Shown here: piece after piece, positions 12,319-47,286 of the stretch
Layout of the letters: every line of letters starts with the position of its first letter
Numbering within the stretch: the stretch's first letter is position 1
Source of the DNA: an uncultured Pseudomonadota bacterium
GTDB taxonomy: Bacteria > Pseudomonadota > Gammaproteobacteria > Burkholderiales > SG8-39
Assembly (NCBI GenBank): GCA_937907425.1
Contig: CALCIE010000075.1
Location: 2,897 to 66,896 of the forward strand
DNA length: 64,000 bases
Direction of reading: 5' to 3'
The notes under the pieces: model-generated
The model's database searches: none
Told to the model about the DNA's origin: nothing
What the model saw: the letters and a program-made list of their open reading frames with translations, nothing else
Position numbers and translations under genes: made by a program

Positions 12319-12360
12319 GCCGCGGGCCTGCGCCGCGCAGGCGGTTCGAAGGGCGACACT

Positions 12361-13677: not shown

Positions 13678-13761
13678 GGATCGGCTTCCCGGTGATGCGC
13701 CCGTCGTTATGGATGCGTTGCCCAGAGACTAGGCAATCCGGACACCGCGGGTTGCAAACTT

Positions 13762-21275: not shown

Positions 21276-21284
21276 GGTGACGCC

Positions 21285-22511: not shown

Positions 22512-22513
22512 GC

Positions 22514-23917: not shown

Positions 23918-23935
23918 GTTCTCTTGATGCGCTTC

Positions 23936-25861: not shown

Positions 25862-25872
25862 GATCGTTCCGT

Positions 25873-28613: not shown

Positions 28614-28625
28614 GCCGCCTCCCGT

Positions 28626-30538: not shown

Positions 30539-30541
30539 GGC

Positions 30542-31705: not shown

Positions 31706-31707
31706 AG

Positions 31708-32811: not shown

Positions 32812-32813
32812 GT

Positions 32814-34343: not shown

Positions 34344-34458
34344 ACGGACGGCACCCGCTTCCCGTTGGGCGAGTTCGATTCCCACAAGATCCCTGAGCGT
34401 TGTTGGTTTTGATTGCGCAGGCACGCGGCCGCGCCGGCGGGGCAACGCCCCGCATGGC

Positions 34459-35364: not shown

Positions 35365-35374
35365 CTGACACCTC

Positions 35375-36934
35375 TCAGAATCGGGGACCGCCGACGGTCA
35401 GCAGCATCATCGCCGCGCCGTACACGGCGAACAGACCCGCCACGCCGCCCGCGAACAACGCGACGTTGCGCCTCCGCTGACGGTTCATCGCGGCATTGGT
35501 CAACAGGGACACGGTGCCGAGCACCGGACGTCCGGATACCTCGCGCAGCATGCGGGCATCGTGGAAGGTCGGCAGCGCCTGGCTGATGACGAAGGCGAAG
35601 AACAGGCCCGCGCCGAGCGCGACGAACAGCACTGCCGGCAGCATCAGCAGGCGGTTCGGCGCCACGGGCGTGGGCGAGACCGAGGGCGGATCGATGATGC
35701 GGAAGTCGGCAAGGCCCGCGGCCGCGTCCATTTCGCCGGACAGCGTGGCCGATTCGCGCCGCTGCACCAGCGTCTGGTAGTTGCGCCGCTGCACGTCGTA
35801 GTCGCGGTTGAGCGCGGCGTACTGCGCTTCCACCTCCGGCAGCATCTGCGCCGCGGCACGCATCTTCTCCACCCGCGCCTGCAGTTCGTTGGCGCGCGCC
35901 TGCAATGCGGCGATGTGCGCCTCGGATTCGGCCAGCGCGACCTTCAATTGCTGGAACACCGGATTGGTGTTGAGCGGCCGCGAACCGACCGAACCCGCCA
36001 TGCTCTGGCCACCCGAAGCGCCCTTCTGTTTCTTCTCCTCCTCGAGCGAGGCGATCAGCCGTTTGGTGTACTGCACGTCGGGATGCGCTTCGGTGTAGCG
36101 CCGCAGCAGTTCGTCCAGGTTGCGCTTCTGCGCTTCGATACGCAGATCCAGTTCGGAAGCCGGACCGGCCGGCGCGAGCGCGGTCCCGTCCGGGAGATAG
36201 ACGGCCTCCTCGCCGTCGAGCTGGCGCTTGTAGGAGTCGCGCACCTGTTCGGCCGCGCGCAGTTCCAGATTGACGCGCGCGAGCTCTTCGTTGAGGCGCT
36301 GCATCTGCTGGTAGTAGGCGTTGCCGTCGCCACCCATCATGCCCATGTGCTTGAGCTTGAATTCCTTCACGCGGTTCTCGGCTTCGCGCAGCTTGGCCTC
36401 GTACACCGCGATCTGTTCGTCGATGAAGCGGCGTGCGGCGTCCGAGCCCTTGCGTTTATCGCCGATGCCCGACTCGACGAACATCGACAGGAGCGCCTGC
36501 ACCACCCGCTTCGCCTCGGCGGGATTGGTGTGGCGATAGGTGATGGTGTAGAGGTTCTGCCGGTCGCTGCCTTTGAGCTGCAGCGTCTTCATCAGATGAT
36601 CGATGAGCTGCTCCTTCTGGCGCGTGGTCTGGATGTTGTGGTCCAGGTCCGCCATGCGGATCAGCTTCTCGATGTTGGGACGGCTGATCAGCGTGCGGCT
36701 CAGGATGGCGATCTGCTGATCGACGTTGGGCTGCACCGCCAGGCCAGACATCAGCGGCTTCAGCACCGACTGGGTATCGACGTACACCCGCGCGCTCGCC
36801 TCGTACTGGTCTGGCATCTTGAACAGCATGATCGCGCCGGCGATGCCGACGATCCATGCCACGGCGAGCCCCGGCCAGCGGCGCCGCCACATGCCGCGCA
36901 GGTACGTCATCAGTTGTTGCAGCAACTCGTCCAT
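35375..36934 (-). CDS. polysaccharide chain-length determinant (Wzz/PCP) protein, PEP-CTERM locus subfamily
   Basis: RBS GAGGTGG. N-terminal TM (WPGLAVAWIVGIAGAIMLF), long coiled-coil periplasmic region, C-terminal TM(s). Confidence 0.85.
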   Translation of the reverse strand: MDELLQQLMTYLRGMWRRRWPGLAVAWIVGIAGAIMLFKMPDQYEASARVYVDTQSVLKPLMSGLAVQPNVDQQIAILSRTLISRPNIEKLIRMADLDHNIQTTRQKEQLIDHLMKTLQLKGSDRQNLYTITYRHTNPAEAKRVVQALLSMFVESGIGDKRKGSDAARRFIDEQIAVYEAKLREAENRVKEFKLKHMGMMGGDGNAYYQQMQRLNEELARVNLELRAAEQVRDSYKRQLDGEEAVYLPDGTALAPAGPASELDLRIEAQKRNLDELLRRYTEAHPDVQYTKRLIASLEEEKKQKGASGGQSMAGSVGSRPLNTNPVFQQLKVALAESEAHIAALQARANELQARVEKMRAAAQMLPEVEAQYAALNRDYDVQRRNYQTLVQRRESATLSGEMDAAAGLADFRIIDPPSVSPTPVAPNRLLMLPAVLFVALGAGLFFAFVISQALPTFHDARMLREVSGRPVLGTVSLLTNAAMNRQRRRNVALFAGGVAGLFAVYGAAMMLLTVGGPRF

Positions 36935-37025
36935 GAATCACCACCTCAGCAGAACGTCTCAATCACCGCGCCGGGCCGGCGGCCGTTCGACGCTTCCTCG
37001 TCATCCGCCGAGCGCCGCCGTTCCG

Positions 37026-37646
37026 CTAGAACCAGCTTTGCGGAATGATCAGCACGTCTCCCGGCTTCACGTCCACGTTGGCCGTCACGTCGCCCCGTTT
37101 GACCAGATCCTTCAACCGCACCGTGTACTGCTTGCCGCCTTCCGAAGTACGCAACAGCACCGACGCATTGCCGTCGGCGAAATCGGTCAGCCCGCCGACC
37201 GCGATCATCACGTCGAGCAGGGTCATGTTCTGGCGATAGGGCAGCGTCTGCGGTTTGCCCGCTTCGCCGATGACGCGGATCTGTTCGCTGTAGGGACCGA
37301 CGAAGTTGGTGACGATGACCGTCACGACCGGATCGCGGATGTACTTGCTCAGCGCTTTCTCGATGTCGCGCGCGAGCGTGGTCGGGTCCTTGCCCGCGGC
37401 GGGCAGGTCTTCCACCAGCGGCGTGGTGATCAGTCCGTCCGGGCGCACCGGCACGGCGAGCGAAAGTTCCGGGTTGCGCCACACGATGATGCTGACCTGG
37501 TCGCCCGGGCCGATGACATAGCGGTAATCCGGTGTCGCCGCGGAAGTCGGCGCCGGCGGATAACCGATCCCAGTGCCGCAGCCGGCGAGCAATGCGGCAC
37601 ACAGCATGGCGAACATGTGATGACGGAACTGTGCGGCAACAGACAT
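37026..37646 (-). CDS. polysaccharide export outer-membrane lipoprotein (Wza-like, PEP-CTERM system-associated)
   Basis: ATG 37646 preceded by GGGAGA. Lipobox MFAMLCAALLAGCG. Poly_export block YVIGPGDQVSIIVW, SLBB-like C-terminus, ends ...IIPQSWF. First gene of the operon. Confidence 0.85.
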   Translation of the reverse strand: MSVAAQFRHHMFAMLCAALLAGCGTGIGYPPAPTSAATPDYRYVIGPGDQVSIIVWRNPELSLAVPVRPDGLITTPLVEDLPAAGKDPTTLARDIEKALSKYIRDPVVTVIVTNFVGPYSEQIRVIGEAGKPQTLPYRQNMTLLDVMIAVGGLTDFADGNASVLLRTSEGGKQYTVRLKDLVKRGDVTANVDVKPGDVLIIPQSWF

Positions 37647-37902
37647 CGACGGTCTCCCTAATTGACGATCGTTCGTTGGTCTTCTCGGCTGGAGCCGTAC
37701 ACCGATTCGAAACTCCGTTGGACATGGGCTGGAACGCGCTCGGCATACACGCGCGGACAGTAGAGCCGCGAGACTAACTCCGCCCTCTGTACCGATGGGC
37801 GAAATTGACAATGTTTAACTGCCGCTCCGTGTGCTGGACGCATGCCATATACGGCAAGCGCTGCGCCGGAACCGGTGCGCGCGACAGTTGTTGACGAGGT
37901 TG

Positions 37903-38955
37903 TTAAATCTGATGACGGTAGACGAGCGCGCTCGCGCGCGGACGGCCGGCACGCACCGCAGGCGGCGCGGCGTAGCCGAAACGGAACACCATGACCGGAT
38001 GCGCATCGGGCACCAGTTCGCGCCAGGCGCGCACTAGGCGCGCACGCGCCGCGTCGTCGAGCGCGCTGCGCCCGGCGCGTGCGAGCGCCACGGCGGCGGC
38101 GAAGGGTTGCGCGGCGAGCCCCCGGCGCGTGGCGGCAAGCCAGAGGCGCTCCATCGCTCTGCCCGCCCGCAACAGCGCATCGACACTTTCCAGCGCCGTG
38201 CGTGAGGCCAGCACACAAAGATGCGGCGCCCGGCGCGCGGGAAACGCGCTCGCACGCGCAGCGATAGCGTGATGCAACCCCGCGCGGGCAAGCGCTCGCG
38301 CCAGCGGCCAATGGCGTAACAGCGAGAATGCGCCGCGCATGCCCGGCTCGATCCCGAGCGCCGCGGGCGGCAATCCTTCTTCCGCGCTGCGCCGCCAGCC
38401 GACGTCGAAGCGGATGCCGGCGAACATCGCCCGGTGCAATTCGGCGTTGGCATAACGGTGCGCTTCGGCTTCGCGCAGCAGCCTGCACAGCGGCTTGCGG
38501 GTCTCGTCGTCATCGAACCAGTGCAGCCGCCAGTTGCCGCCCAGGGGAGCGAGCGCGGCTTCGAGCGCCGCCCGCTCGTCGGCGCTCAGACGCGGACCGC
38601 GATAGAACAGTCGCCGGTTGGTGTGACGTTGCCCGATACAGGCCGCGAGCTCGTCGGGTGCCGCGTCCCGATGCACGAAGTCGATGCGGATGTCCGCGAG
38701 CTCCGACAGACGGTCGCGCGCGATCTCGCAACGCAGACCGTGCACGCTGGCGGCAACGACGATGTTCTCCAGAGCCGCGCCGATCGACAGCCACATGGCG
38801 TAATGCTGGTCCGCGCTCGCCTGCGCGATCGCCGGATCGGGATGCAGACGCAACTGCATGCCTTCGAAACTGTAACGGAAGGCATGGCGGTTCTCGGCCG
38901 AAGGCGCCCACACCGCCGCTTCGAGCAGATCGCGTCGCACCGCCGCGTCGAGCAC
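37903..38955 (-). CDS. double nitroreductase-fold protein (Acg/Rv1355c C-terminal-domain-like)
   Basis: GTG start 38955 lies 3 nt after the ThiF stop. AAVWAPSAENRHAFRY near the N-terminus and a second lobe (LWLAATRRGLAAQP) fit two-lobed nitroreductase-superfamily proteins. Family call is tentative. Confidence 0.6.
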   Translation of the reverse strand: MLDAAVRRDLLEAAVWAPSAENRHAFRYSFEGMQLRLHPDPAIAQASADQHYAMWLSIGAALENIVVAASVHGLRCEIARDRLSELADIRIDFVHRDAAPDELAACIGQRHTNRRLFYRGPRLSADERAALEAALAPLGGNWRLHWFDDDETRKPLCRLLREAEAHRYANAELHRAMFAGIRFDVGWRRSAEEGLPPAALGIEPGMRGAFSLLRHWPLARALARAGLHHAIAARASAFPARRAPHLCVLASRTALESVDALLRAGRAMERLWLAATRRGLAAQPFAAAVALARAGRSALDDAARARLVRAWRELVPDAHPVMVFRFGYAAPPAVRAGRPRASALVYRHQI

Positions 38956-38958
38956 CGT

Positions 38959-39822
38959 TCAATCCTTGGCCGCAAGCTGACGCGCGATGAGACGCATCAG
39001 CAGTTTCTGCAGCGGATTGGCGTTGCCCCAGGGCCGCCAGGTTTTTTTGTATTTGTTGCGGTAGGCGTCGAAATGCAGGCCGTACGGTGCGCTCACCACC
39101 TCACCGCGCCGCAGGATGAGCTTGAGCGTCTCGGTCGCTGCCACGCCCGCGCAGAGCTGGCAGGCCATGGGCGTCGAGGGTCCGGCGCCGCGCGCCAGCG
39201 CGACGCGGCTGCGGTCCACGAGATAGCTGCGTTGCAGCATGGCAGGCGTGAGGCCGGCGAGGAAACGCAACGCCATCTCGGCCTCCGAGCGGCCTTCCAG
39301 ACGGAAGTATTCCTCGAAGCTCATGCCGCCCGGCAGGAAGTTGAGCAGCGCAACGCCCATGCCGATGGGTGCCGCGGTGGTGGCCGGCACGCCGAGCCGC
39401 GCGCAGGCGGCGAAGGTCATGCGGCGCGCCTCGAAAGCGAAGAAGTCGAGCCCGTCCACATAGACGTCGGCGTCACGCAGGAAGTCGTCGACGTTGTGCG
39501 GCTGGACGCCTTCGGGAAAGATACGGATGTCCAGCTCGGGGTTGATGTCGCGCGCCATTTCGACCATCACCTCGAGTTTCGGCCGCCCCAGCGTGGACAT
39601 GGCCGCGCCGGCCTGGCGGTTGAAGTTCGCCAGCCCGAACCGGTCGAACTCGGCCAGATTGAAGGCGCCGATCCCCAGCCGCGCGAGCGTCAGGAGATGG
39701 AAACCGCCCACGCCGCCCAGCCCGGCGATCGCCACCCGCGCACGGCGCAGCTTTTGCTGTTCGGCCGGCGTCACCCAGCCGATGTTGCGCGTAAAAGCGG
39801 CGTCGTAATCGAAGGCGTTCAC
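38959..39822 (-). CDS. ThiF/MoeB/E1-family adenylyltransferase
   Basis: GTG start. FTRNIGWVTPAEQQKLRRARVAIAGLGGVGG (dinucleotide fold), DFDRF..ANFNRQ-type block (AEFDRFGLANFNRQ), single CxxC (CQLC). Confidence 0.85.
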   Translation of the reverse strand: MNAFDYDAAFTRNIGWVTPAEQQKLRRARVAIAGLGGVGGFHLLTLARLGIGAFNLAEFDRFGLANFNRQAGAAMSTLGRPKLEVMVEMARDINPELDIRIFPEGVQPHNVDDFLRDADVYVDGLDFFAFEARRMTFAACARLGVPATTAAPIGMGVALLNFLPGGMSFEEYFRLEGRSEAEMALRFLAGLTPAMLQRSYLVDRSRVALARGAGPSTPMACQLCAGVAATETLKLILRRGEVVSAPYGLHFDAYRNKYKKTWRPWGNANPLQKLLMRLIARQLAAKD

Positions 39823-39850
39823 GAGGGCTCGGACTCCGGAATCGGGCGGC

Positions 39851-41140
39851 GTGCCGCGAGATGCCAGGATCGTGCCGGGTGCGAACGACTTGCTTTTGGA
39901 AATCCGGCCGACCGTCTTGCTGACCGATCTCTACATCGCCTTGCGTAACGTGCTGCGCCACCGGCGCCGCAGCCTCATGGGCATCGCCTCCATCGCCTTC
40001 GGCATCGTCGCCCTCATGCAGGCCGCGGGCTTCGTGGAATGGGTGTACTGGGCCATGCGCGAGGACACCATCCGTTCGCGCCTGGGGCACATACAGGTCG
40101 TCCGGGAAGGCTATCGCGAACGCGGCCAGGCTGATCCTTTCGCCTATCTGCTGCCGCAGCGCTCGCCGGTGCTCGATGCGATCGAAGCGCTGCCGCACGT
40201 GGTGACGGTGGCCCCGCGCCTGCATTTCTCCGGGCTGGCGAGCGCAGGCGACACCACCTTGTCCTTCATCGGCGAGGGCATGCTGCCCGAGCGCGAGACG
40301 GCCTTCGATCGCGGCGTGGTGTTCACGGCCGGGCGCGACCTCGCCGCGGACGAAAGCGCAGGTATGGTGCTCGGCCACGGACTGGCGCGCAATCTCGGTG
40401 CCGCGATCGGCGACAACGTCGTGCTGGTGGTCAACACCGCCTCCGGCGGCATCAACGCGGTGGAAGGACCGGTGCGCGGCACCTTTTCCACGGTGGCGAA
40501 GAGCTACGACGATTCGGCCCTGCGCGTGCCGCTCGCGCTGGCGCAGCAGCTGCTGCGCGTGGAAGGCGCGCACGTGTGGATCGTGGTCCTCGACGACACC
40601 GCCCGCACCGACGAAACGCTGACCCTGCTGCGCGCACGCTACGGCGACAGCGAACGTCTCGCGTTCATTCCCTGGTACGAGCTGGCGGACTTCTACAACA
40701 AGACGGTGGCGCTGTTCTCCAAACAGGTGGGCGTGGTGAAGCTCATCATCGCCGTCATCATCGTGCTCAGCATTTCCAACACCCTCACCATGAGCGTGCT
40801 GGAACGCACCGGCGAAATCGGCACCACGCTCGCGCTGGGCGCGACGCGGCGGCAGATCCTGCGGCGCTTTCTGGGCGAAGGGCTGTTCCTGGGCGTGATC
40901 GGCGGGCTGGTCGGCCTCGCCCTCGGCTGGCTGCTCGCGCTGGCGATTTCGGCGGTGGGGATTCCGATGCCGCCGCCGCCCGGTATGGCGCGCGGTTTCA
41001 CGGGCGCGATCCGCGTCACGCCGGCGCTCGCTTTCGATGCCTGGCTGCTTGCGGTGCTCACCACGCTCGCGGCCAGCGTCTACCCCGCCTGGCGCGCGTC
41101 GCGGCTGGAAATCGTCGACGCGTTGCGGCACGCGCGCTAG
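39851..41140 (+). CDS. FtsX/MacB-type ABC transporter permease 1 (LolC/E-like)
   Basis: LRNVLRHRRRSLMGIASIAFGIVALM (TM1), large periplasmic domain, three C-terminal TM, ends YPAWRASRLEIVDALRHAR. No in-frame ATG near the 5' end. Candidate starts are GTG 39851 / 39872 and TTG 39890 / 39896 / 39917. Confidence 0.8.
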   Translation: MPRDARIVPGANDLLLEIRPTVLLTDLYIALRNVLRHRRRSLMGIASIAFGIVALMQAAGFVEWVYWAMREDTIRSRLGHIQVVREGYRERGQADPFAYLLPQRSPVLDAIEALPHVVTVAPRLHFSGLASAGDTTLSFIGEGMLPERETAFDRGVVFTAGRDLAADESAGMVLGHGLARNLGAAIGDNVVLVVNTASGGINAVEGPVRGTFSTVAKSYDDSALRVPLALAQQLLRVEGAHVWIVVLDDTARTDETLTLLRARYGDSERLAFIPWYELADFYNKTVALFSKQVGVVKLIIAVIIVLSISNTLTMSVLERTGEIGTTLALGATRRQILRRFLGEGLFLGVIGGLVGLALGWLLALAISAVGIPMPPPPGMARGFTGAIRVTPALAFDAWLLAVLTTLAASVYPAWRASRLEIVDALRHAR

Positions 41141-41150
41141 AGGGCAGCCG

Positions 41151-42374
41151 ATGCGCATCCCGATCCTCCGACTGGCTTCGCGCAACATCCTCCGGCACAA
41201 GCTGCGCACGGCGATGACGCTCGCCGCTATCGTCATCGGCGTGTGCGGGATCATCCTCACCGGCGGCTTCGTGCGGGACATCTTCGTCCAGCTCGGCGAA
41301 AGCTTCATCCATTCCCAAAGCGGCCATCTGCAAGTGGCCAGGCCGGAATTCTTCGGTGAAGGTTCGCGCCGTCCGGAAGCCTTCCTCATCGAGGACGAGG
41401 AGGCGCTGAAACGCCTGGTCGCCGCCCAGCCGGGCGTGGCCTTCGCCATGGGCCGGCTCAATTTCCACGGCCTGCTCAACAACGGCCGCACGGATTGGGC
41501 GGTGATCGCCGAAGGCGTCGAGCCCCAGCTCGAAGCGCGGCTCGGCTCCTCCTTGCAATACATCGCCGGCACGCCGCTCGGCGTGGAGGACGACAACGCC
41601 ATCGTCATCGGCGAAGGGGTGGCGCAGACGCTCGATCTGGCGCCCGGCGATGCGGTCACGCTGGTGGTCAGTACGCCCGAAGGCGCCATGAACACGCTCG
41701 ATTTCGCGGTGCAGGGCGTGTTCCGCACGTTCTCGCGCGATTACGACGCGCGCGCGGTGCGCCTGCCGCTCGCCGCCGCGCAGGATCTGCTCGCCACGCC
41801 GGGCGTGAGCGTGATCGTGGTGGCGCTGGAACACACGGAAGACACGGCGCTCGCCAAGCGCCGCATCGCCTCTGCCGTGCAAGCGCAGGGCCTCGCGGTG
41901 CGCGACTGGCAGGAGTTGAACGATTTCTACGAAAAGACGGTCGCGCTCTACGAGCGGCAGTTCGGCGTGTTGCAGCTCATCATCCTCGTCATGGTGCTGC
42001 TCACCGTGACCAATACCGTCAACATGGCGGTGTTCGAGCGGCAGGGCGAGTTCGGCACCATGCGCGCGCTGGGCAACCGCGGCCGCGACGTCTTCGCCCT
42101 GGTGGTCACTGAGAGCCTGCTGCTCGGCGCGATCGGCGCGGCGATCGGCATCGTGCTCGGCATCCTGCTCGCCCTGACGATCTCGACCGTGGGCATTCCC
42201 ATGCCGCCGCCGCCCAATTCCAACGCGGGTTACACCGCTTACATCCGCCTGGTACCCGACGTGATCGCGGGCGCGGGCCTGGTCGGGATGCTTGCGGCGT
42301 TGTTCGCCAGCCTGCTGCCGGCATGGCGGGTGGCGCGCACGCCGATCGTGGATGCGCTGCGCCAGAACGTCTGA
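41151..42374 (+). CDS. FtsX/MacB-type ABC transporter permease 2 (LolC/E-like)
   Basis: ATG 41151 lies 10 nt after the permease-1 stop. MRIPILRLASRNILRHKLRTAMTLAAIVIGV..., same architecture, ends LPAWRVARTPIVDALRQNV. Confidence 0.85.
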   Translation: MRIPILRLASRNILRHKLRTAMTLAAIVIGVCGIILTGGFVRDIFVQLGESFIHSQSGHLQVARPEFFGEGSRRPEAFLIEDEEALKRLVAAQPGVAFAMGRLNFHGLLNNGRTDWAVIAEGVEPQLEARLGSSLQYIAGTPLGVEDDNAIVIGEGVAQTLDLAPGDAVTLVVSTPEGAMNTLDFAVQGVFRTFSRDYDARAVRLPLAAAQDLLATPGVSVIVVALEHTEDTALAKRRIASAVQAQGLAVRDWQELNDFYEKTVALYERQFGVLQLIILVMVLLTVTNTVNMAVFERQGEFGTMRALGNRGRDVFALVVTESLLLGAIGAAIGIVLGILLALTISTVGIPMPPPPNSNAGYTAYIRLVPDVIAGAGLVGMLAALFASLLPAWRVARTPIVDALRQNV

Positions 42375-42410
42375 GACATTCGCGGCGCCGGTCGTCCGGC
42401 CTTTGTCTAT

Positions 42411-42440
42411 GTCGCCATATGGCGACTCGCGTTTTTCTTT
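42411..42440 (+). terminator. weak hairpin + T-rich tract after the permease genes
   Basis: GTCGCC-ATAT-GGCGAC (42411-42426) followed by TCGCGTTTTTCTTT. Confidence 0.4.
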
Positions 42441-42566
42441 GAAATGCGTGGCTTAGCCGAATGTACCGCGCGGCCGTCGTTGCAACCCAACGTCCGCTCT
42501 CGCAACGGCTCTCCACTCTTTGAGAGAACGAACTGATTATTAAGACTTTTCCATCGTGGCGCGGGG

Positions 42567-42596
42567 CTTGCTCAATGAGCGCGAGCAGGTTTTTTT
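42567..42596 (+). terminator. terminator/attenuator-like hairpin + T7 immediately upstream of NAS-A
   Basis: CTTGCTC-AATGAGCGC-GAGCAGG (7 bp including one G:U) followed by TTTTTTT (42590-42596), 30 nt before ATG 42626. Confidence 0.5.
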
Positions 42597-42625
42597 ACAA
42601 CGACTCATAAGCAGGGCCATCCCAT

Positions 42626-43345
42626 ATGCATATCGCTCGATTTGCCGTCGCGCATCGCCTCGAAAACGATCACCGCATGAGCGAGCTCGGCGAACGATGG
42701 CGCAGCGGCAAACCGTTCATCCTCACCCCCGCGTCGTTCAAGCGTTGCGTGCTGGAAGATGTGCATCTGAATGTGCGCGCCACCATCGCCGACCGTCCTG
42801 CCGACTTCGAGGCCGCGCGCCTGCTGGTCGCCCAGCGCTACACCGCGCGCGGCTACCGCAGCATGTGCGACGCCGGCCGGCCATGCCAGGAAACGCATGC
42901 CGTCACCATCCTGGCGGCCCGGGACAGCCGCACGGTGGGCACCATGACTCTGCGCTTCGATTCCAGCGAGGGTTTGAACGTGGACGAGGCCTACCGCACG
43001 GAAGTCAACGCAGTGCGCGCAGGCGGCGGCGTGGTCTGCGAACTGACCTGCCTGGCCGTGGCGCAAGGCACCGACTCCCACGCCGTGCTGGCGGTGCTGT
43101 TCCGGATGGCTTTTTATGTCGCGGACAAAATGGGCGTGACCGACGTGTTCATCGAAGTGAACCCGCGCCACGAACGTTTCTACAGGCGTGTGCTCGGTTT
43201 CGCCGTGGCCGCCGAACAACGGCTTTGTCCGCGCGTGCAGGCGCCGGCCGTGCTGCTTCATCAGGACATGGTCGCGCTCGGAAAGCGTCTGGGCGGTTTC
43301 CCGCCGCCGACCGAGTACGGCACGCGCGCCCTCGCAGCAACTTGA
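42626..43345 (+). CDS. FeeM-type long-chain N-acyl amino acid synthase, exosortase-associated type (NAS-A; TIGR03694-like from memory)
   Basis: 239 aa. Blocks LLVAQRYTARGY, GTMTLRFDSSEGLNVDEAY, CELTCLAVA, FIEVNPRHERFYRRVLGF, VQAPAVLL. Paralogous to 46417..47286. Confidence 0.7.
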   Translation: MHIARFAVAHRLENDHRMSELGERWRSGKPFILTPASFKRCVLEDVHLNVRATIADRPADFEAARLLVAQRYTARGYRSMCDAGRPCQETHAVTILAARDSRTVGTMTLRFDSSEGLNVDEAYRTEVNAVRAGGGVVCELTCLAVAQGTDSHAVLAVLFRMAFYVADKMGVTDVFIEVNPRHERFYRRVLGFAVAAEQRLCPRVQAPAVLLHQDMVALGKRLGGFPPPTEYGTRALAAT

Positions 43346-43367
43346 GTTCCTCCCTGGCCCTCCGCCT

Positions 43368-43396
43368 CGGGCGGTCTGCGGATCGCCCGTTTTTTT
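43368..43396 (+). terminator. rho-independent terminator of NAS-A
   Basis: CGGGCG-GTCTGCGGAT-CGCCCG followed by TTTTTTT (43390-43396). Confidence 0.7.
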
Positions 43397-43399
43397 AGT

Positions 43400-44866
43400 T
43401 TAGAAGTCGTAACGCAGCTCGGCGTACACGCGGTCGCGGTTGTTATAGCGGCCGAAGAACCCGTCGTCGGGCCCGGCGAAGATGTCGACCCCGAAGGCCA
43501 GCGTGGCGTTCTGCGTCACGTACCAGTTGAGCCGCGGCCGCAGCATGCGGTCGCCGCCGTGCGAGAGGCTTTGAATCCAGAGCAGTTGCGGCTCCAGCAC
43601 AGGCGTGATCTTGTGACTGATCCACACGCTCGCGCCGAAACCGTCGGACTTGGGCACGATGTGGTCGGCGTCGCCGAAGATATGACGATGAAAGACCTGG
43701 ATGTTGAGCCGCGTGTCGGCCGGCACGGCGATGTCGAAGCCGAGGATGTAGTCGAAACTGTTGCGCTTCACCACGCCGTCGGCGTCGTCGAGCGTATCGA
43801 CGCTGTAGCGCTGGCCGTCGGTATAGACCGCTTCCCCGCGCAGCACGAAGGCGCCGAGATCCTTGCTCAGGGTCGCGCCCGCCTGCCAGATCCGCGCGTG
43901 CCGCGGCGTGAACACGGCAATCGGCGTGCCGTTCACCGGCACGATGTCGCGATGGAAAGTCGGCGTGGCGCTGTGGCTGCGGTAATAGAAGGCGGCGAGG
44001 TCCCAGCCGTCGACGAGCGTGTTCACGCGCACGCCCCATGCGGAATTGGAGACGTTGCGCGCCGGGCGGTCGTCCGAAGCGAAGACGGCATCGGGGATGT
44101 CGTCGGCGATAAGCCCCGCGGGATAGAACTCCGCGCCCGGCCTGCCGATCTCGTCGTAGCTTTGATAGGGAATCCACACCAGCTCCGCGTGCCAGTCGTT
44201 GCCGAAGTATTCGGCGCGCGCGGCCCACTGCGGAATGCGGATGACGTCGAAGCTCGGCAGGATGAAGTCGCGCTGGTCGCGCGCGGAGACCACGTCGGCG
44301 AAGAACAGTCCCACCACTTCGCCCCAGATGATGTGCTGGCGCCCGAGCCGGAACTCCCAGTCTCCGGCGCTGAAGTCGAGATAGTTCTCGCGCAGCATGA
44401 ATTCGAAGTCCTGGTCGTCCTGCACCCGGCCGGGATAGAAGTTGCTGTCGAAATACACCGGATCGATGTCGGCGCGCGCGGATACGACGTAGCGCACGCC
44501 GGGGACGAGTTCGCCGCGGCCTTCCAGTTGCAGCCGCGAGACGGCGCGCGACCAGTGACCGGGATGGCTGTGCGTGTAGGCGAGCTGACCGTTGTAGAAG
44601 CCGCCCCAACGGAAGGCCCGCGCCGGTTCTTCCTTCTCCTCGAGCCCGAACAATTCGCCGCGCGAAGGCTGAGATTCCGCCGGCGGAGCGGGCGGCGTAC
44701 CGAACAGCTCGTCGCGGGAGCGCGGCTCGGGCGGCGGCGTCTCAGGCTTCGCCGGACTGACGCCGAAGAGCTCGTCGCGCGAAGCCTGTGCGAACGCGTC
44801 GACATGCGCGGCGCAGAACGCGGTCCACAGCAGCGCCGGTACTATCGTCCTCATCATCCAGTTCAT
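43400..44866 (-). CDS. outer-membrane beta-barrel protein (DUF1302/alginate-export-like) with N-terminal ELFG repeats
   Basis: GGGAG RBS. Signal peptide MNWMMRTIVPALLWTAFCAAHVDAFA. Three (S)R(D/G)ELFG repeats with Pro-rich linkers. FRLGRQHIIWGE block, alternating strands, C-terminal ...AELRYDF. Confidence 0.7.
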   Translation of the reverse strand: MNWMMRTIVPALLWTAFCAAHVDAFAQASRDELFGVSPAKPETPPPEPRSRDELFGTPPAPPAESQPSRGELFGLEEKEEPARAFRWGGFYNGQLAYTHSHPGHWSRAVSRLQLEGRGELVPGVRYVVSARADIDPVYFDSNFYPGRVQDDQDFEFMLRENYLDFSAGDWEFRLGRQHIIWGEVVGLFFADVVSARDQRDFILPSFDVIRIPQWAARAEYFGNDWHAELVWIPYQSYDEIGRPGAEFYPAGLIADDIPDAVFASDDRPARNVSNSAWGVRVNTLVDGWDLAAFYYRSHSATPTFHRDIVPVNGTPIAVFTPRHARIWQAGATLSKDLGAFVLRGEAVYTDGQRYSVDTLDDADGVVKRNSFDYILGFDIAVPADTRLNIQVFHRHIFGDADHIVPKSDGFGASVWISHKITPVLEPQLLWIQSLSHGGDRMLRPRLNWYVTQNATLAFGVDIFAGPDDGFFGRYNNRDRVYAELRYDF

Positions 44867-44881
44867 GCCCGCACTCCCAGT

Positions 44882-45628
44882 TCAAGCATTGCGTTGCTGC
44901 CGTTCGCGCCGGCGCATTTCGTCGACCAGCAGCCAGCGGCTGCGCCGTACGCCCAGCGCGCGGATCTGCCCGTCTTCCATCCGCACCAGCCGGTCGGCCT
45001 TCGCCATCACCTTCTTGTCGTGTGTGGAAAAGATGAACGTGGTGCCGAAGCGCTGGTTGATGTCCTTCATCAGCGCCAGGATGCCCTCGCCGGTCCTGTG
45101 GTCCAGGTTGGCGGTGGGCTCGTCCGCCAGCACGAGTTTGGGATGGGTCGCCAGCGCGCGGGCGATGGCCACGCGCTGGCGCTGTCCGCCCGAAAGCTGA
45201 TTGGGCCGGTGATCGGCGAACTTGGAAAGCTGCACCACGTCGAGGAAATGTTCGACCCGCTTGCGCCGCTCTTCGCGCGACAATTCCTTAAGTTGCAGGA
45301 GCGGGTACTCCACGTTCTCGCGCGCGGTGAGCACCGGCAGCAGATTGAAGGTCTGGAACACGAAGCCGATGGTGCGGGCGCGCAGCTCGGCCAGCTCGTC
45401 CGGCGTGCGGCCGCTCACATCCTGGCCGTCGATAAGGATTTTTCCGCTGGTCGGCGTGTCAATGCAGCCGATGAGATTCAAAAGCGTGGACTTGCCGCTG
45501 CCCGAGGGCCCGGCGATTGCGAGGAACACCCCGGCCTCGATGCTGAGGCTGACATTGCGCAGCGCCTGCACCCGCTGCTCGCCGAGCAGATAATCCTTGG
45601 AAACGTTTTCCACCCGCACCAGTGACAT
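44882..45628 (-). CDS. ABC transporter ATP-binding protein (LolD/MacB-NBD-like)
   Basis: Walker A GPSGSGKST, Q-loop, signature LSGGQRQRVAIARAL, Walker B LVLADEPT. Lies 15 nt upstream of the beta-barrel gene. Confidence 0.9.
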   Translation of the reverse strand: MSLVRVENVSKDYLLGEQRVQALRNVSLSIEAGVFLAIAGPSGSGKSTLLNLIGCIDTPTSGKILIDGQDVSGRTPDELAELRARTIGFVFQTFNLLPVLTARENVEYPLLQLKELSREERRKRVEHFLDVVQLSKFADHRPNQLSGGQRQRVAIARALATHPKLVLADEPTANLDHRTGEGILALMKDINQRFGTTFIFSTHDKKVMAKADRLVRMEDGQIRALGVRRSRWLLVDEMRRRERQQRNA

Positions 45629-45663
45629 GACTTGCTTCTCAAAGCTCGAACGGATTGAACACG

Positions 45664-46413
45664 ATGCGAATCGCTGAACTGCTCGCCGCCGGCCTGGCGG
45701 CCCTCGCTTTCGCCGCCGGCGCCCATGCCGCCCAGGAACCGCCCGATGCCGCCGCCATCGTCAGGAAAGCCGATGAGGTGCGCTTCCCGGACCACGGCTT
45801 CGAGGTGGAGGTCGACATCGAATCGCAGCTCGCCGACGGCAGGACCGAGTCACGCAAGTACAAAGTGCTGTCCAAGGGCAACGAGAACACGCTGGTCATG
45901 GTGGTGGAACCGGCTTCGGAACGCGGCCAGATCCTGCTGATGAAAGGCCGCGATCTGTGGATCTTCCTGCCCAACGTCTCGCAACCTGTACGCATCGGTC
46001 TCGCTCAACGGCTCACCGGCCAGGTCGCCAACGGTGACCTGGCGCGCGCCAACTTCGCCGGCGACTACACGCCCAAATTGCTGCGCACCGAGGACATCGA
46101 CGGCGAGCCGCATTACGTGCTCGAGCTCACGGCCGTCGACCGCGGTGTGACCTACGGCAAGGTGATGTACTGGGTACGCGCATCCAACTACTGGCCGCAC
46201 AAGGCGGAGTTCTATTCTTTGTCGGGCCGGCTGCTGAAGACGGCGCACTATCGCGGCTACCAGCAAATGGCGGGCCGGATGCGCCCGACCCAACTGCTCA
46301 TGGAAGACGCGTTGCGCAAAGGCGAGCGCAGTACGCTCGAATACCGCAACATGAAGCCGCGCGACCTGCCGGACAAGGTCTTCACCAAGGATTACCTCAA
46401 ACGCCTGCAATGA
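45664..46413 (+). CDS. periplasmic LolA-like 'outer membrane lipoprotein-sorting' family protein
   Basis: ATG 45664 (track begins at TTG 45655). Signal peptide MRIAELLAAGLAALAFAAGAHA. About 225-aa beta-rich mature domain of the kind annotated LolA_like next to FtsX-type ABC systems. Assignment is from memory of that family. Confidence 0.65.
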   Translation: MRIAELLAAGLAALAFAAGAHAAQEPPDAAAIVRKADEVRFPDHGFEVEVDIESQLADGRTESRKYKVLSKGNENTLVMVVEPASERGQILLMKGRDLWIFLPNVSQPVRIGLAQRLTGQVANGDLARANFAGDYTPKLLRTEDIDGEPHYVLELTAVDRGVTYGKVMYWVRASNYWPHKAEFYSLSGRLLKTAHYRGYQQMAGRMRPTQLLMEDALRKGERSTLEYRNMKPRDLPDKVFTKDYLKRLQ

Positions 46414-46416
46414 GCT

Positions 46417-47286
46417 TCAGCCGTCGCGGTTGCGCGCAGCATCCAGTTCGCGCAGCCGGCGCAGGATGCCGCGCTCCTCCTCGGGCGAAAAGCCGAAGGG
46501 ATACAGCGAACGCACGCTGCCGGCCAGTTCCGCCTTGCCGCCGTAACGCGCGATGCCCTCCGCGATGGTTTCGAACGCTACGCACAACAGCACGGCGGGC
46601 GCGTTCACGCGCCTGTTGATGCGCTCCGGCCCGATCTGTTCGAAACCCAGCGCCCGTTCGTAGAAGCCGACGTGGCGCGGATTCACCTCGATCACCGCAT
46701 GGTCGTATCCCCGCACCACCGAGGCATAGAGATAGGCGGTGTGAAAGAGCCCCGCCAGCACCGGTTTGCTGGCCGTGCGCACGTCGACCGCGAGGCGGGT
46801 GAATTCGCAGATGCGCCAGCCGCGCCGCCGCAACGCGTCCAGTTCCTCGCGATAGAGCTCGTCGGCGGACAGTCCGCGCGGCGAATCGAGGCGGATGCTC
46901 ACGGTGCCGACCACCGCGCCGTCGTCGTAGGCCAGGAAGGAATAGAGATCGGGATCGCTGGGAATGCCCGGAACGATATAGCCGCGGTCGCTGTAGCGGC
47001 GGCTCACCAGAGTGCTCGCTTCGCGCCGGAAACCGGCGGATTTGGCCAGACGGATCTTGAACGCCGGCTGCGTATCGCTTTCGTCCGGGAACTCGCTCTG
47101 ACCGGCTTCCGGCAGCGTCAGATTGCGGAAGCGGCGCGCGGGAAGCTCCGGGGCCGCGAACACGGTTACGCCGCTTCGTTCGGCGGCCGGCGGTACGGAT
47201 TCGCCGCCGTGCGCGGACGCATCGTTGCGCGCCTGCGCACCCTTGCCACGCCTGGCGCCGAACCACCTGAGCAGTTTTTCTTTCAT
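46417..47286 (-). CDS. FeeM-type long-chain N-acyl amino acid synthase paralogue (NAS-B)
   Basis: ATG 47286 (MKEKLLRWFG...). Blocks LVSRRYSDRGY, GTVSIRLDSPRGLSADELY, CEFTRLAVD, VIEVNPRHVGFYERALGF, VNAPAVLL align with NAS-A. Has about 85 extra N-terminal residues. The track start 47427 adds Arg-rich sequence that is not protein-like. Confidence 0.7.
   Translation of the reverse strand: MKEKLLRWFGARRGKGAQARNDASAHGGESVPPAAERSGVTVFAAPELPARRFRNLTLPEAGQSEFPDESDTQPAFKIRLAKSAGFRREASTLVSRRYSDRGYIVPGIPSDPDLYSFLAYDDGAVVGTVSIRLDSPRGLSADELYREELDALRRRGWRICEFTRLAVDVRTASKPVLAGLFHTAYLYASVVRGYDHAVIEVNPRHVGFYERALGFEQIGPERINRRVNAPAVLLCVAFETIAEGIARYGGKAELAGSVRSLYPFGFSPEEERGILRRLRELDAARNRDG

What the first reader, a model, noticed from the sequence alone, without database searches (positions are those of the whole stretch)
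37903..47286. Candidate lipo-amino-acid synthesis plus Lol-like envelope export module attached to the exosortase locus
Seen: directly upstream of the XrtA operon lies a ~9.4 kb cluster of short transcription units. The order is <-nitroreductase-like <-ThiF | FtsX permease-> FtsX permease-> NAS-A-> | <-beta-barrel <-ABC ATPase | LolA-like-> | <-NAS-B. Two separate FtsX/MacB-type permeases plus one LolD-like ATPase reproduce the LolC/LolE/LolD composition. A signal-peptide LolA-like protein and a C-terminal-Phe beta-barrel would complete an inner-membrane to outer-membrane route. Two FeeM-type N-acyl amino acid synthase paralogues bracket these genes. Established: FeeM/NasY-type enzymes make long-chain N-acyl amino acids, and a subgroup of them has been reported to be genomically linked to PEP-CTERM/exosortase loci. 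Inference: the cluster makes a lipo-amino acid (or derived lipid) and uses a dedicated Lol-like pathway to extract it from the inner membrane and deliver it to the outer membrane or cell surface, functionally coupled to exosortase sorting or EPS anchoring. I am not aware of a description of this transporter / LolA-like / barrel / E1-nitroreductase combination as a unit.
Basis: partly seen in the sequence, partly recalled or inferred. Interest (0 to 1): 0.8.

Follow-up and report, generated by a model that had tools for sequence, protein, structure and literature searches.

The report
Acyl-oxazolone lipid genes with Lol-like exporter
Next to an exosortase (XrtA) polysaccharide locus lies a conserved nine-gene module: a known enzyme trio that makes N-acyl-dehydroamino-acid or oxazolone lipids, joined to its own Lol-like inner-to-outer-membrane transport set. 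In related genomes the module travels with PEP-CTERM surface-protein genes, so the old question of why lipo-amino-acid synthases sit with exosortases can now be tested.

Summary
All nine genes are present at the stated coordinates, with the stated families and orientations, directly upstream of a true XrtA operon.

Together with FeeM-type N-acyl amino acid synthases they form the published Oxz/Tyz/Trz pathway: N-acylation, ATP-dependent ThiF cyclisation and flavin-dependent desaturation. That pathway makes N-acyl oxazolones or N-acyl dehydro-amino acids.

The other five genes are two paralogous FtsX/MacB permeases, one ATPase, a secreted LolA-superfamily protein and a DUF1302 barrel. The secreted protein is a close homologue of Nitrosomonas NE2245 (PDB 3BUU). 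Together they resemble Lol in architecture but fail the Lol membership cut-offs.

In 80 related loci the biosynthetic and transport genes stay together in more than 20 different gene orders. PEP-CTERM genes with PrsR/sigma-54 boxes sit inside or beside the module far more often than chance. In cultured Piscinibacter koreensis the biosynthetic genes lie inside the XrtA/PrsKRT locus.

No searchable paper links oxazolone genes to exosortase or to this transporter. I rate it a new variant of known kinds. Product, cargo and mechanism remain inferred.

The parts
37903..38955 (-). [quoted passage not shown]
   Evidence: NF047509 E 3.9e-38; Rv1355c (TrzS) family model positions 374-716, E 5.9e-34; Pfam Nitroreductase 37.6 bits. 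AF2 model pLDDT 90.5. Best PDB match is MsAcg 2YMV, TM 0.69/0.73 over the whole chain. Lies 3 bp downstream of ThiF.
38959..39822 (-). ThiF-like ATP-dependent adenylating cyclase (TyzB / OxzB-ThiF-domain type).
   Evidence: NF006077, 454 bits (cut-off 266), and Pfam ThiF 135.7 bits. Nearest solved relative is the cyclodehydratase TcdA. The same family is fused to the FDO in NF011424/NF005901 and in P0394.
39851..41140 (+). FtsX/MacB-type (type VII ABC) permease 1.
   Evidence: MacB_PCD + FtsX. Best NCBIfam model lolCE at 99.5 bits, cut-off 362. 41% identical to permease 2.
41151..42374 (+). FtsX/MacB-type permease 2, a paralogue of permease 1.
   Evidence: MacB_PCD + FtsX. lolCE 112 bits. Nearest solved structures are LolE (E 3e-21), LolF and LolC, ahead of MacB (E 3.6e-7).
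42411..42426 (.). Perfect 16-bp palindrome GTCGCCATATGGCGAC. Candidate activator site or the terminator of the permease operon.
   Evidence: conserved, with one or two substitutions, in the orthologous intergenic regions of L006 and L007.
42557..42572 (+). Sigma-54 -24/-12-like element (TGGCGC-N5-TTGCT), 53 nt upstream of the NAS-A start codon.
   Evidence: one of only three 1-mismatch hits in the window; the GG and TTGC blocks are conserved at the same position in L006 and L007.
42626..43345 (+). FeeM-type N-acyl amino acid synthase, paralogue A.
   Evidence: Pfam FeeM 138 bits. 45% identical to NAS-B over the catalytic core.
43400..44866 (-). DUF1302 outer-membrane beta-barrel. The N-terminal tail carries three S-R-[DG]-E-L-F-G repeats.
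   Evidence: Pfam DUF1302 57.5 bits. Signal peptide and terminal ...RYDF; the RY-x-F end is conserved in orthologues. Repeat motif.
44882..45628 (-). ABC ATPase for the two permeases.
   Evidence: ABC_tran 130.8 bits. Best NCBIfam models are LolD at 231 bits (cut-off 308) and DevA at 223 bits.
45655..46413 (+). Secreted LolA-superfamily protein (PF17131 / TP_0789-like). Close homologue (probable orthologue) of Nitrosomonas europaea NE2245.
   Evidence: PF17131 178 bits. PDB 3BUU E 1.9e-95 over 222 residues. Signal peptide without a lipobox.
46417..47286 (-). FeeM-type N-acyl amino acid synthase, paralogue B, with a conserved N-terminal extension of about 85 residues.
   Evidence: Pfam FeeM 174 bits. 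FeeM structure 2G0B E 2.6e-12. [quoted passage not shown] Conserved N-terminal residues.
12361..37646 (-). Adjacent XrtA/PEP-CTERM exopolysaccharide locus (context, not part of the nine genes).
   Evidence: TIGR03027, TIGR03007, TIGR03018, TIGR03016, TIGR03109+EpsI (27066-28613) and TIGR03097, all above cut-off.

Best explanation
The cluster has two halves.

**Biosynthetic half** (NAS-A, NAS-B, ThiF, FDO). This is an Oxz/Tyz-type pathway.
1. The FeeM-type synthases N-acylate an amino acid, by precedent most likely an aromatic one.
2. The ThiF enzyme adenylates the free carboxylate and closes the oxazolone ring.
3. The Acg/TyzC-like flavoprotein introduces the C-alpha/C-beta double bond.

The product would be an N-acyl oxazolone or, after ring opening, an N-acyl dehydro-amino acid.

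**Transport half** (two FtsX/MacB permeases, one ATPase, a soluble LolA-superfamily protein, a DUF1302 barrel). I infer that it takes this amphiphile, or a conjugate made from it, out of the inner membrane. It would then shuttle the cargo across the periplasm and release it into or through the outer membrane.

The whole module belongs functionally to the XrtA/PEP-CTERM cell-surface and exopolysaccharide system.

**Status of each step.** Shown: gene content, family assignments, synteny and the regulatory-site association. Inferred: enzyme chemistry (by homology to characterised enzymes), cargo, transport direction, and the nature of the coupling to exosortase.
For: **Chemistry**
- FeeM + ThiF + FDO are fused in NCBIfam families NF011425, NF011424 and NF005901 (the Rv1355c/TrzS family), and in library protein P0394.
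- OxzAB, TyzACB and TrzAS were reconstituted experimentally.
- TyzC's subcluster includes Betaproteobacteria and Hydrogenophilalia, with stand-alone FDOs next to a ThiF gene.
- The betaproteobacterium Massilia kyonggiensis carries the same gene trio and produces N-acyl dehydrotyrosines; the paper proposes the link from comparative genomics.
- The FDO model matches Acg along its full length.
- The nearest solved relative of the ThiF protein is the cyclodehydratase TcdA.

**Transport**
- The four transport families accompany NAS-B homologues in 17 of 40 full-length loci, and at least one of them in 24 of 40. More than 20 distinct gene orders are seen.
- A divergent variant with a fused double permease and a LolA-like protein only about 35% identical also sits with NAS and ThiF genes (L076, L080, L083, L085).
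- Six look-ups anchored on LolA-like homologues found FeeM genes in 5 of the 6 loci.
- The carrier is secreted and a close homologue has a solved LolA-superfamily fold.
- The permeases are closest to LolE, LolF and LolC among solved structures.
- DUF1302 barrels work with LolA-superfamily proteins and inner-membrane exporters in Ame-type and Pseudomonas systems.
- The Mtb tyz genes are flanked by the lipid exporter gene mmpL9.

**Exosortase link**
- The window cluster abuts the XrtA operon.
- 32 of 40 PEP-CTERM genes in related loci lie within 500 bp of a module gene; the null mean is 7.8 and the maximum 13 in 200 simulations.
- 33 of 40 carry sigma-54 sites, and most of these also have the upstream TGTCG-N6-TTTACA box, matching the two motifs of Haft 2006.
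- In P. koreensis the genes sit between the XrtA export genes and PrsT/R/K.
- 22 of 31 full-length module loci carry a PEP-CTERM-system marker, against 3 of 9 NAS-only loci.
Against: - No product, cargo or localisation data exist for any member of this module.
- The transporter occurs without NAS, ThiF or FDO in L087, next to other lipid-type genes.
- ThiF-bearing loci lack the transporter within 10 kb in 7 of 40 full-length loci, for example L074, assigned to the Thiobacillus-type group by shared layout.
- All nine families co-occur in only 5 of 40 full-length loci.
- The published oxazolone papers read here mention no dedicated transporter; the only exporter noted is mmpL9 beside the Mtb tyz genes.
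- The permeases, ATPase and carrier all fail the Lol equivalog cut-offs.
- No LolB-like acceptor or membrane-fusion protein is present.
- The survey covered only the 80 best of at least 561 NAS-B relatives, nearly all from MAGs. It could not test whether xrtA is present elsewhere in each genome.
- The window itself has no PEP-CTERM gene and no PrsR box.
Confidence: 0.55

Rival explanations
1. The cargo is protein, not free lipid. The oxazolone is an activated acyl donor, and the N-acyl amino acid could also take part. One of them becomes attached to exosortase-processed PEP-CTERM proteins. The Lol-like ABC / LolA-like / DUF1302 route then carries the resulting lipid-tagged proteins to the outer membrane, as Lol does for lipoproteins.
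For: PEP-CTERM genes with PrsR/sigma-54 boxes are embedded in or abut the module. The permeases are closest to the lipoprotein extractors LolE, LolF and LolC. The acceptor for the exosortase transfer step is unknown (Haft 2006). Oxazolones (azlactones) react with amines (established chemistry; my own knowledge).
Against: The embedded PEP-CTERM proteins belong to many unrelated families. The window cluster has none. There is no evidence that any PEP-CTERM protein is lipidated. ThiF, FDO and the NAS proteins have no signal peptides, whereas exosortase is proposed to act at the periplasmic face (Haft 2006 model). A barrel is not a LolB-type acceptor.
Confidence: 0.12
2. The transporter is a general hydrophobic-compound or envelope-lipid exporter or efflux system of the PEP-CTERM regulon. 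It does not specifically carry the NAS/ThiF/FDO product. The two gene sets are neighbours only because they share regulation and a cell-surface role.
For: L087 carries the same transporter beside UDPGT, GMC oxidoreductase, AMP-binding and reductase genes, with no NAS. L091 and L092 add FAD_binding_4 and AMP-binding neighbours. DUF1302 systems elsewhere handle monoterpenes or unknown envelope components. The L074-type loci (Thiobacillus group) keep NAS-ThiF-FDO without the transporter.
Against: NAS genes are interleaved with transporter genes in more than 20 different orders, and in a second, divergent transporter variant. FeeM genes occur in 5 of the 6 loci found with LolA-like homologues.
Confidence: 0.2
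3. [quoted passage not shown] ThiF and the nitroreductase-like protein do something unrelated, for example sulfur-carrier or redox chemistry.
For: FeeM-type enzymes alone make N-acyl amino acids. Massilia umbonata makes only saturated kyonggic acids and lacks the ThiF and NTR genes in its candidate cluster. Half of the related loci show no ThiF within reach.
Against: ThiF and FDO are 3 bp apart. They are fused to each other and to a FeeM-like domain in other organisms. The trio is experimentally tied to desaturation and cyclisation of N-acyl amino acids. No ThiS/MoaD-like carrier gene lies in the cluster.
Confidence: 0.08

Closest known systems
OxzAB (Pseudoalteromonas rubra), TyzACB and TrzAS (Mycobacterium tuberculosis and relatives): N-acyl oxazolone biosynthesis. 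The same gene trio is proposed for the kyonggic acids, thalassotalic acids and stieleriacines.
   Same: A FeeM-like N-acyltransferase, a ThiF-like ATP-dependent cyclase and a nitroreductase-superfamily flavin-dependent oxidase are clustered. Here ThiF and FDO are separate genes 3 bp apart, as in tyzB/tyzC.
   Different: There are two NAS paralogues, one with a conserved 85-residue N-terminal extension. There is a dedicated five-gene envelope transport set. The cluster is embedded in the XrtA/PEP-CTERM context. None of these features appears in the papers read. The amino-acid and acyl specificity here is unknown.
LolCDE-LolA-LolB lipoprotein sorting pathway
   Same: Two paralogous four-helix FtsX/MacB permeases plus one ATPase gene, and a soluble periplasmic LolA-superfamily carrier. 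The permeases are closest to LolE, LolF and LolC among solved structures.
   Different: Scores are far below the equivalog cut-offs: 99-112 against 362 for lolCE, and 231 against 308 for LolD. The carrier belongs to PF17131, not the LolA family. There is no LolB. The outer-membrane partner is a DUF1302 barrel. The genes sit in a biosynthetic cluster, not a housekeeping operon.
DUF1302 / DUF1329 / BNR / RND export sets (AmeABCD of Castellaniella defragrans; co-fit genes in Shewanella and Pseudomonas)
   Same: A DUF1302 outer-membrane barrel is paired with a periplasmic LolA-superfamily protein and an inner-membrane exporter for hydrophobic or envelope compounds.
   Different: The inner-membrane engine is an ABC/FtsX type VII transporter, not an RND pump. 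The periplasmic protein is PF17131, not DUF1329. There is no BNR protein. The barrel is a short, divergent DUF1302 (488 residues; match to model positions 97-541).
[quoted passage not shown]
   Same: FeeM-family NAS genes are genomically tied to PEP-CTERM/exosortase loci. A knockout of such a gene abolished polysaccharide band formation.
   Different: The window NAS proteins match no NCBIfam NAS model. They come with ThiF, FDO and a transporter. The 2011 paper could not be read here.
DevBCA-TolC heterocyst glycolipid exporter and the LolA-like genes in aryl-polyene and flexirubin clusters (recalled from my own knowledge, not tested)
   Same: FtsX-type ABC exporters or LolA-like proteins are dedicated to moving a cluster-encoded lipid to the outer envelope. 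The ATPase scores 223 bits on the DevA model.
   Different: No membrane-fusion protein or TolC is present here. The DevC model scores only E 0.0025 on permease 1. The aryl-polyene systems use RND/MMPL pumps.

Membership tests
Oxz/Tyz/Trz N-acyl oxazolone pathway | FeeM/OxzA/TyzA-like N-acyltransferase in the cluster | tested here: met
   Pfam FeeM at 138 and 174 bits, cut-off 27. FeeM structure 2G0B E 2.6e-12.
Oxz/Tyz/Trz N-acyl oxazolone pathway | ThiF-like ATP-dependent cyclase adjacent to or fused with the oxidase | tested here: met
   ThiF 135.7 bits and NF006077 454 bits. 3-bp gap to the FDO gene. Matches the ThiF part of the Rv1355c (TrzS) family model, E 7.9e-17.
Oxz/Tyz/Trz N-acyl oxazolone pathway | Flavin-dependent oxidase of the nitroreductase superfamily (single-chain, Acg-like with lid) | tested here: met
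   NF047509 E 3.9e-38. Rv1355c family positions 374-716, E 5.9e-34. The model matches MsAcg 2YMV, TM 0.69/0.73.
Oxz/Tyz/Trz N-acyl oxazolone pathway | Product is an N-acyl oxazolone or N-acyl dehydro-amino acid | not testable with these tools
   Needs expression and LC-MS.
LolCDE-LolA-LolB | Permeases reach the lolCE / LolC / LolE equivalog scores | tested here: not met
   TIGR02212 at 99.5 and 112.3 bits against a cut-off of 362.
LolCDE-LolA-LolB | ATPase reaches the LolD equivalog score | tested here: not met
   TIGR02211 at 231.4 bits against a cut-off of 307.75.
LolCDE-LolA-LolB | Periplasmic carrier is a LolA-family protein, with a LolB acceptor lipoprotein | tested here: not met
   The only Pfam family matched at E <= 0.01 is PF17131 (LolA_like / TP_0789-like), and no NCBIfam model matches. 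No LolB-like gene is in the cluster.
MacAB-TolC-type tripartite type VII ABC pump | MacB_PCD + FtsX permease with a membrane-fusion (HlyD-type) adaptor and a TolC-type duct | tested here: not met
   The permease domains are present. No adaptor or TolC gene lies in the cluster.
DUF1302/DUF1329/BNR/RND export set | DUF1302 outer-membrane barrel | tested here: met
   PF06980 at 57.5 bits, cut-off 23.2. Signal peptide and aromatic C-terminus.
DUF1302/DUF1329/BNR/RND export set | DUF1329 partner, BNR protein and RND (COG1033) exporter | tested here: not met
   None of these families occurs in the cluster.
TIGR03694 exosortase-associated acyltransferase | Match to the family model | tested here: inconclusive
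   No NCBIfam hit other than NF011425 at E <= 1. I could not verify that TIGR03694 is in this release.
XrtA/PEP-CTERM system (context) | Exosortase A with EPS export, chain-length and kinase genes | tested here: met
   TIGR03109, TIGR03027, TIGR03007, TIGR03018, TIGR03016 and TIGR03097 are all above cut-off.

The most novel reading that the evidence does not exclude
The module supplies the missing lipid partner of exosortase sorting. In this reading the oxazolone is a self-activated acyl donor, and its N-acyl amino acid precursor may also take part. One of them is joined to PEP-CTERM proteins, or to deacetylated EPS amines. The Lol-like ABC / NE2245-type carrier / DUF1302 barrel would then be a second, lipoprotein-like trafficking route that delivers the lipid-tagged cargo to the cell surface.
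Probability: 0.12. Interest if true: 0.9.

Novelty: new variant of a known kind. Interest (0 to 1): 0.55.

Why it matters
[quoted passage not shown] The acceptor or partner molecule of exosortase sorting has been unknown since 2006.

**What this analysis adds.**
- At least one large betaproteobacterial group of these synthases belongs to an oxazolone / dehydro-amino-acid lipid pathway.
- That pathway often has its own Lol-like envelope route.
- PrsR/sigma-54-controlled PEP-CTERM genes are embedded in it.

**Concrete experimental handles.**
- A cultured strain, Piscinibacter koreensis ID0723.
- A solved carrier structure, NE2245 (PDB 3BUU).
- Enzymes whose chemistry is already established.

**Wider relevance.**
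- It gives a first plausible physiological setting for proteobacterial oxazolones.
- It suggests a possible cargo class for PF17131 and for short DUF1302 proteins.
- Floc and biofilm formation in wastewater bacteria depends on this surface system (my own knowledge; not examined here).

Tried and rejected
- **RiPP-type reading.** I considered ThiF + nitroreductase as in azole-forming systems. No YcaO gene and no precursor ORF lie in the short gaps. The NAS / oxazolone literature explains the pair better.
- **RNA elements.** No Rfam family matches in 36900-49000 at E <= 0.1.
- **Sigma-70 promoters.** None found.
- **Window-wide sigma-54 scan.** 30 hits against 29.9 expected, so it is uninformative alone. 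Only the conserved site upstream of NAS-A was kept.
- **PrsR box in the window.** TGTCG-N6-TTTACA occurs at chance level.
- **PEP-CTERM genes in the window.** None, even with a loosened pattern.
- **A single conserved PEP-CTERM family in the module.** Rejected: BLAST and jackhmmer split the 44 proteins of at least 200 residues matching the PEP-CTERM pattern in the fetched loci into at least 9 groups plus singletons.
- **Sequence search of the FDO against the PDB.** Nothing found. Structure prediction plus Foldseek was needed.
- **Craig et al. 2011.** Not held in the library.
- **NE2245 neighbourhood.** NE2245 was not among the 120 listed LolA-like hits, so its genomic context could not be fetched.
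- **Not attempted.** A structure for the DUF1302 barrel, or a LolC 'hook' test on the permeases.

Full report
**1. Observation**

The window has 64-69% G+C. In such DNA long spurious ORFs are common, so I checked each ORF by codon-position G+C. All nine show the coding pattern, with GC3 of 0.78-0.88.

Independent gene calls on public metagenome contigs that encode the identical ABC ATPase give the same nine genes, lengths and strands.
- nitroreductase-superfamily protein, 37903-38955 (-)
- ThiF, 38959-39822 (-)
- two MacB_PCD+FtsX permeases, 39851-41140 and 41151-42374 (+)
- FeeM-type NAS-A, 42626-43345 (+)
- DUF1302 barrel, 43400-44866 (-)
- ABC ATPase, 44882-45628 (-)
- PF17131 LolA-like protein, 45655-46413 (+)
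- FeeM-type NAS-B, 46417-47286 (-)

The barrel and the LolA-like protein have type I signal peptides. The barrel ends in ...RYDF.

The genes below 37.7 kb are a true XrtA locus. These score above their NCBIfam cut-offs:
- TIGR03027 export protein
- TIGR03007 chain-length determinant
- TIGR03018 tyrosine autokinase
- TIGR03016 outer-membrane protein
- TIGR03109 exosortase A fused to EpsI (27066-28613)
- TIGR03097 ligase

Above the cluster lie a histidine kinase, glmS and a glmU-like NTP-transferase/hexapeptide gene.

**2.

The NCBIfam hits themselves pointed to it.
- Both NAS proteins match only the N-terminus of NF011425, a 989-residue family. The window's ThiF protein matches the middle of that family (model positions 312-586).
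- ThiF and the NTR-like protein match the two halves of NF011424 and of NF005901, the Rv1355c family.

A literature search then showed that this trio is characterised.
- OxzA/OxzB of Pseudoalteromonas rubra make N-acyl tyrazolones. OxzA N-acylates tyrosine. The ThiF-nitroreductase fusion OxzB cyclises and oxidises.
- In M. tuberculosis, TyzA (FeeM-like fold), TyzB (ThiF, ATP-dependent cyclisation) and TyzC (flavin-dependent oxidase, O2-dependent desaturation) make C12:0-tyrazolone.
- TrzA/TrzS (Rv1356c/Rv1355c) make tryptazolones.
- NAS, ThiF and nitroreductase genes are also clustered in producers of N-acyl dehydrotyrosines, including the betaproteobacterium Massilia kyonggiensis.
- TyzC's sequence subcluster is reported to contain Betaproteobacteria and Hydrogenophilalia, with stand-alone oxidases next to a ThiF gene. 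That is the arrangement here, with a 3-bp gap.

My own tests agree.
- The oxidase folds with high confidence (pLDDT 90.5).
- Its best PDB match, over the whole chain, is MsAcg 2YMV, the fold described for TyzC (TM 0.69/0.73).
- A profile search finds 949 representative proteins at E <= 1e-30. Most are about 350 residues, with occasional fusions to a ThiF domain.
- The nearest solved relative of the ThiF protein is the cyclodehydratase TcdA.
- NAS-B matches the FeeM crystal structure.
- NAS-A and NAS-B are 45% identical in the catalytic core.

**3. The transport half**

- The two permeases are 41% identical paralogues. Their closest solved relatives are LolE, LolF and LolC (E 3e-21 to 1e-12), well ahead of MacB.
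- Even so, they and the ATPase score far below the Lol equivalog cut-offs.
- The carrier is not in the LolA family. It is a close homologue (probable orthologue) of Nitrosomonas europaea NE2245, solved as PDB 3BUU, 'uncharacterized LolA superfamily protein' (E 1.9e-95 over 222 residues).
- DUF1302 proteins are described as 18-stranded AlgE-like barrels with no solved structure.
- In Shewanella, Pseudomonas and Castellaniella they work with a LolA-superfamily protein (DUF1329), a BNR protein and an RND exporter. Those systems have been proposed to export an envelope component or monoterpenes.

The architecture 'inner-membrane exporter + LolA-superfamily protein + DUF1302 barrel' therefore has a precedent. 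The ABC/FtsX engine and the PF17131 carrier are the variant features. No membrane-fusion protein, TolC or LolB gene is present.

**4. Conservation**

I anchored a scan on an alignment of NAS-B homologues. It covered one genome per species and found at least 561 loci, of which the best 80 were kept. I annotated these with tblastn and iterated profiles built from the window proteins.

| Feature within +/-10 kb | Full-length (>=20 kb) loci, of 40 |
|---|---|
| At least one transport family | 24 |
| All four transport families | 17 |
| ThiF | 23 |
| FDO (probably an undercount) | 15 |
| A second NAS gene | 20 |
| All nine families | 5 |

- More than 20 different gene orders occur. This argues for selection on co-localisation rather than inheritance of one block.
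- The closest relative is L006, a Nitrosomonadales MAG. It reproduces the window's order from glmS to the EPS export gene.
- A divergent variant has the two permeases fused and a LolA-like protein only about 35% identical. It also sits with two NAS genes, in three of the four loci with ThiF as well (L076, L080, L083, L085).
- Six reciprocal look-ups anchored on LolA-like homologues (65-68% identical) found FeeM genes in five loci. In the sixth (L087) the transporter sits beside a UDP-glycosyltransferase, a GMC oxidoreductase, an AMP-binding enzyme and a reductase instead.
- Conversely, the Thiobacillus-type loci keep NAS-ThiF-FDO without the transporter (L074 is assigned to this group by its shared layout).

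**5. Link to the exosortase system**

- Direct adjacency to the XrtA EPS export genes is seen in only 6 of 40 full-length loci.
- A different signal is strong. A C-terminal pattern search found 40 PEP-CTERM genes in the NAS-B-anchored loci. Of these, 32 lie within 500 bp of a module gene and 21 lie inside the module's span. Random placement gives a mean of 7.8 and a maximum of 13 in 200 trials.
- Of the 40, 33 carry a TGGCAC-N5-TGCT sigma-54 element about 70-100 nt upstream of the start codon. The background rate is 0.13 per kb.
- Most of these 33 also have a TGTCG-N6-TTTACA box about 68-92 nt further upstream. These are the two motifs that Haft et al. assigned to PrsR-dependent PEP-CTERM genes.
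- The proteins themselves belong to many unrelated families.
- PrsT-like TPR proteins occur in 15 of 80 loci.
- Overall, 22 of 31 full-length module loci carry some PEP-CTERM-system marker, against 3 of 9 NAS-only loci.
- In the cultured Piscinibacter koreensis ID0723 (L075), ThiF, a PEP-CTERM gene and two NAS genes lie between the XrtA ATPase, kinase, chain-length and export genes on one side and PrsT, PrsR, PrsK and the TIGR03013 glycosyltransferase on the other. All of these flanking genes score above cut-off.
- The window itself has no PEP-CTERM gene and no PrsR box.
- It does have a sigma-54-like site 53 nt upstream of NAS-A, conserved in position in L006 and L007. A conserved 16-bp palindrome lies 131 nt further upstream.

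**6. Mechanism**

*Shown:* gene content, family membership, synteny and regulatory-site enrichment.

*Inferred by homology to reconstituted enzymes:* the NAS enzymes acylate an amino acid, ThiF adenylates and cyclises, and the FDO desaturates. The result would be an N-acyl oxazolone or a dehydro-amino acid.

*Inferred from architecture and co-localisation only:* the ABC/FtsX heterodimer extracts the amphiphile from the inner membrane. The NE2245-type protein carries it across the periplasm. The DUF1302 barrel inserts or releases it at the outer membrane.

The coupling to exosortase is established as a genomic association. Its mechanism is open. I give the combined statement a confidence of 0.55.

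Rival readings:
- The cargo is lipid-tagged PEP-CTERM protein (0.12).
- The transporter serves other envelope lipids and is only co-regulated with the enzymes (0.20).
- The product is a plain N-acyl amino acid and ThiF/FDO are unrelated (0.08).

**7. Novelty**

- The biosynthetic trio is already known.
- The NAS-exosortase link is known (Craig et al. 2011, cited). One knockout of an exosortase-linked NAS gene gave a polysaccharide phenotype.
- The DUF1302 / LolA-superfamily export architecture is known.
- Absent from every paper I could search are the union of the oxazolone pathway with a Lol-like ABC / PF17131 / DUF1302 route, and its embedding in the PEP-CTERM regulon. No paper combines oxazolone terms with exosortase terms except one incidental genome-mining study.

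I therefore rate it a new variant of known kinds, with an interest of 0.55. It remains well above ordinary because it makes an old open question testable.

**8. Limits**

- The locus sample holds the closest 80 relatives only, nearly all from MAGs.
- Flanks are limited to 10 kb, and xrtA presence elsewhere in each genome was not tested.
- The FDO and DUF1302 counts depend on profile thresholds.
- I could not confirm that TIGR03694 is in the NCBIfam release used.
- No structure was predicted for the barrel or the permeases.

Noticed in passing
window 42557-42572 (+) and 42411-42426: A sigma-54 -24/-12-like site (TGGCGCGGGGCTTGCT) lies 53 nt upstream of the NAS-A start codon. It is conserved in position in the orthologous regions of L006 and L007. 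A perfect 16-bp palindrome, GTCGCCATATGGCGAC, lies 131 nt further upstream and is also conserved apart from one or two substitutions. It is not the PrsR TGTCG-N6-TTTACA box. It could be another activator's site, or the terminator of the permease operon.
   Followed up: partly
window 49052-49067 (-): A second 1-mismatch sigma-54-like site (GGGCACCATAGTTGCT) lies 155 nt upstream of the histidine kinase gene at 47461-48897 (-). That kinase is conserved next to NAS-B only in the closest relatives (L006, L007).
   Followed up: no
window 44650-44790 (-): residues ~29-75 of the DUF1302 protein: Three copies of S-R-[DG]-E-L-F-G are separated by Pro/Ala-rich linkers in the predicted periplasmic N-terminal tail of the barrel. 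An [RK][DE]xLF motif occurs 1-3 times in this tail in 18 of 30 orthologues, against 1 of 30 barrel bodies. It may be a docking motif for the carrier or the permease periplasmic domains.
   Followed up: partly
L075 (Piscinibacter koreensis ID0723) 209-20058: In this cultured strain ThiF, a PEP-CTERM gene and two NAS genes are inserted between the XrtA EPS export genes and PrsT/PrsR/PrsK plus the TIGR03013 glycosyltransferase. No transporter was detected within 10 kb, and an SDR epimerase/dehydratase-like gene follows the NAS genes. It is a good experimental entry point.
   Followed up: partly
L087 16247-20771; L091 4991-8694; L092 1-4132: A recurring neighbour set lies beside the same transporter: a FAD_binding_4 oxidase in all three loci, a PEP-CTERM gene nearby in all three, an AMP-binding enzyme in L087 and L092, and an unannotated protein of 356-394 residues in L091 and L092. 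In L087 it appears without any NAS gene. The transporter may therefore serve more than one lipid pathway.
   Followed up: no
L076, L080, L083, L085: A divergent module variant has the two FtsX permeases fused into one gene and a LolA-like protein about 35% identical to the window's. No DUF1302 barrel was detected. In L083 a protein of 427 residues with no family match follows the LolA-like gene and might be the outer-membrane component.
   Followed up: no
P0357 (1593 aa) and P0394 (1062 aa), from the FDO profile search: Rosetta-stone fusions of the oxidase. One is ThiF-FDO followed by further nitroreductase-type sequence. The other places a UDPGT/EryCIII-like glycosyltransferase, an FDO and a GT28 domain in one chain. 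The second hints that some FDO-modified lipids are glycosylated; compare the UDPGT gene next to the LolA-like gene in L087.
   Followed up: no
L090 8845-11398: A penicillin-amidase (Ntn hydrolase, AHL-acylase-like) gene, split into two ORFs, lies directly downstream of the FeeM gene inside the module. It may be an N-acyl amide hydrolase acting on the same lipid.
   Followed up: no
window 39851-39914: The annotated GTG start of permease 1 leaves only 28 bp to the divergent ThiF gene. Alignment with permease 2 begins at residue 27, so the true start may lie about 20 codons downstream. The gap between the ABC ATPase and the LolA-like gene is similarly tight (26 bp).
   Followed up: no
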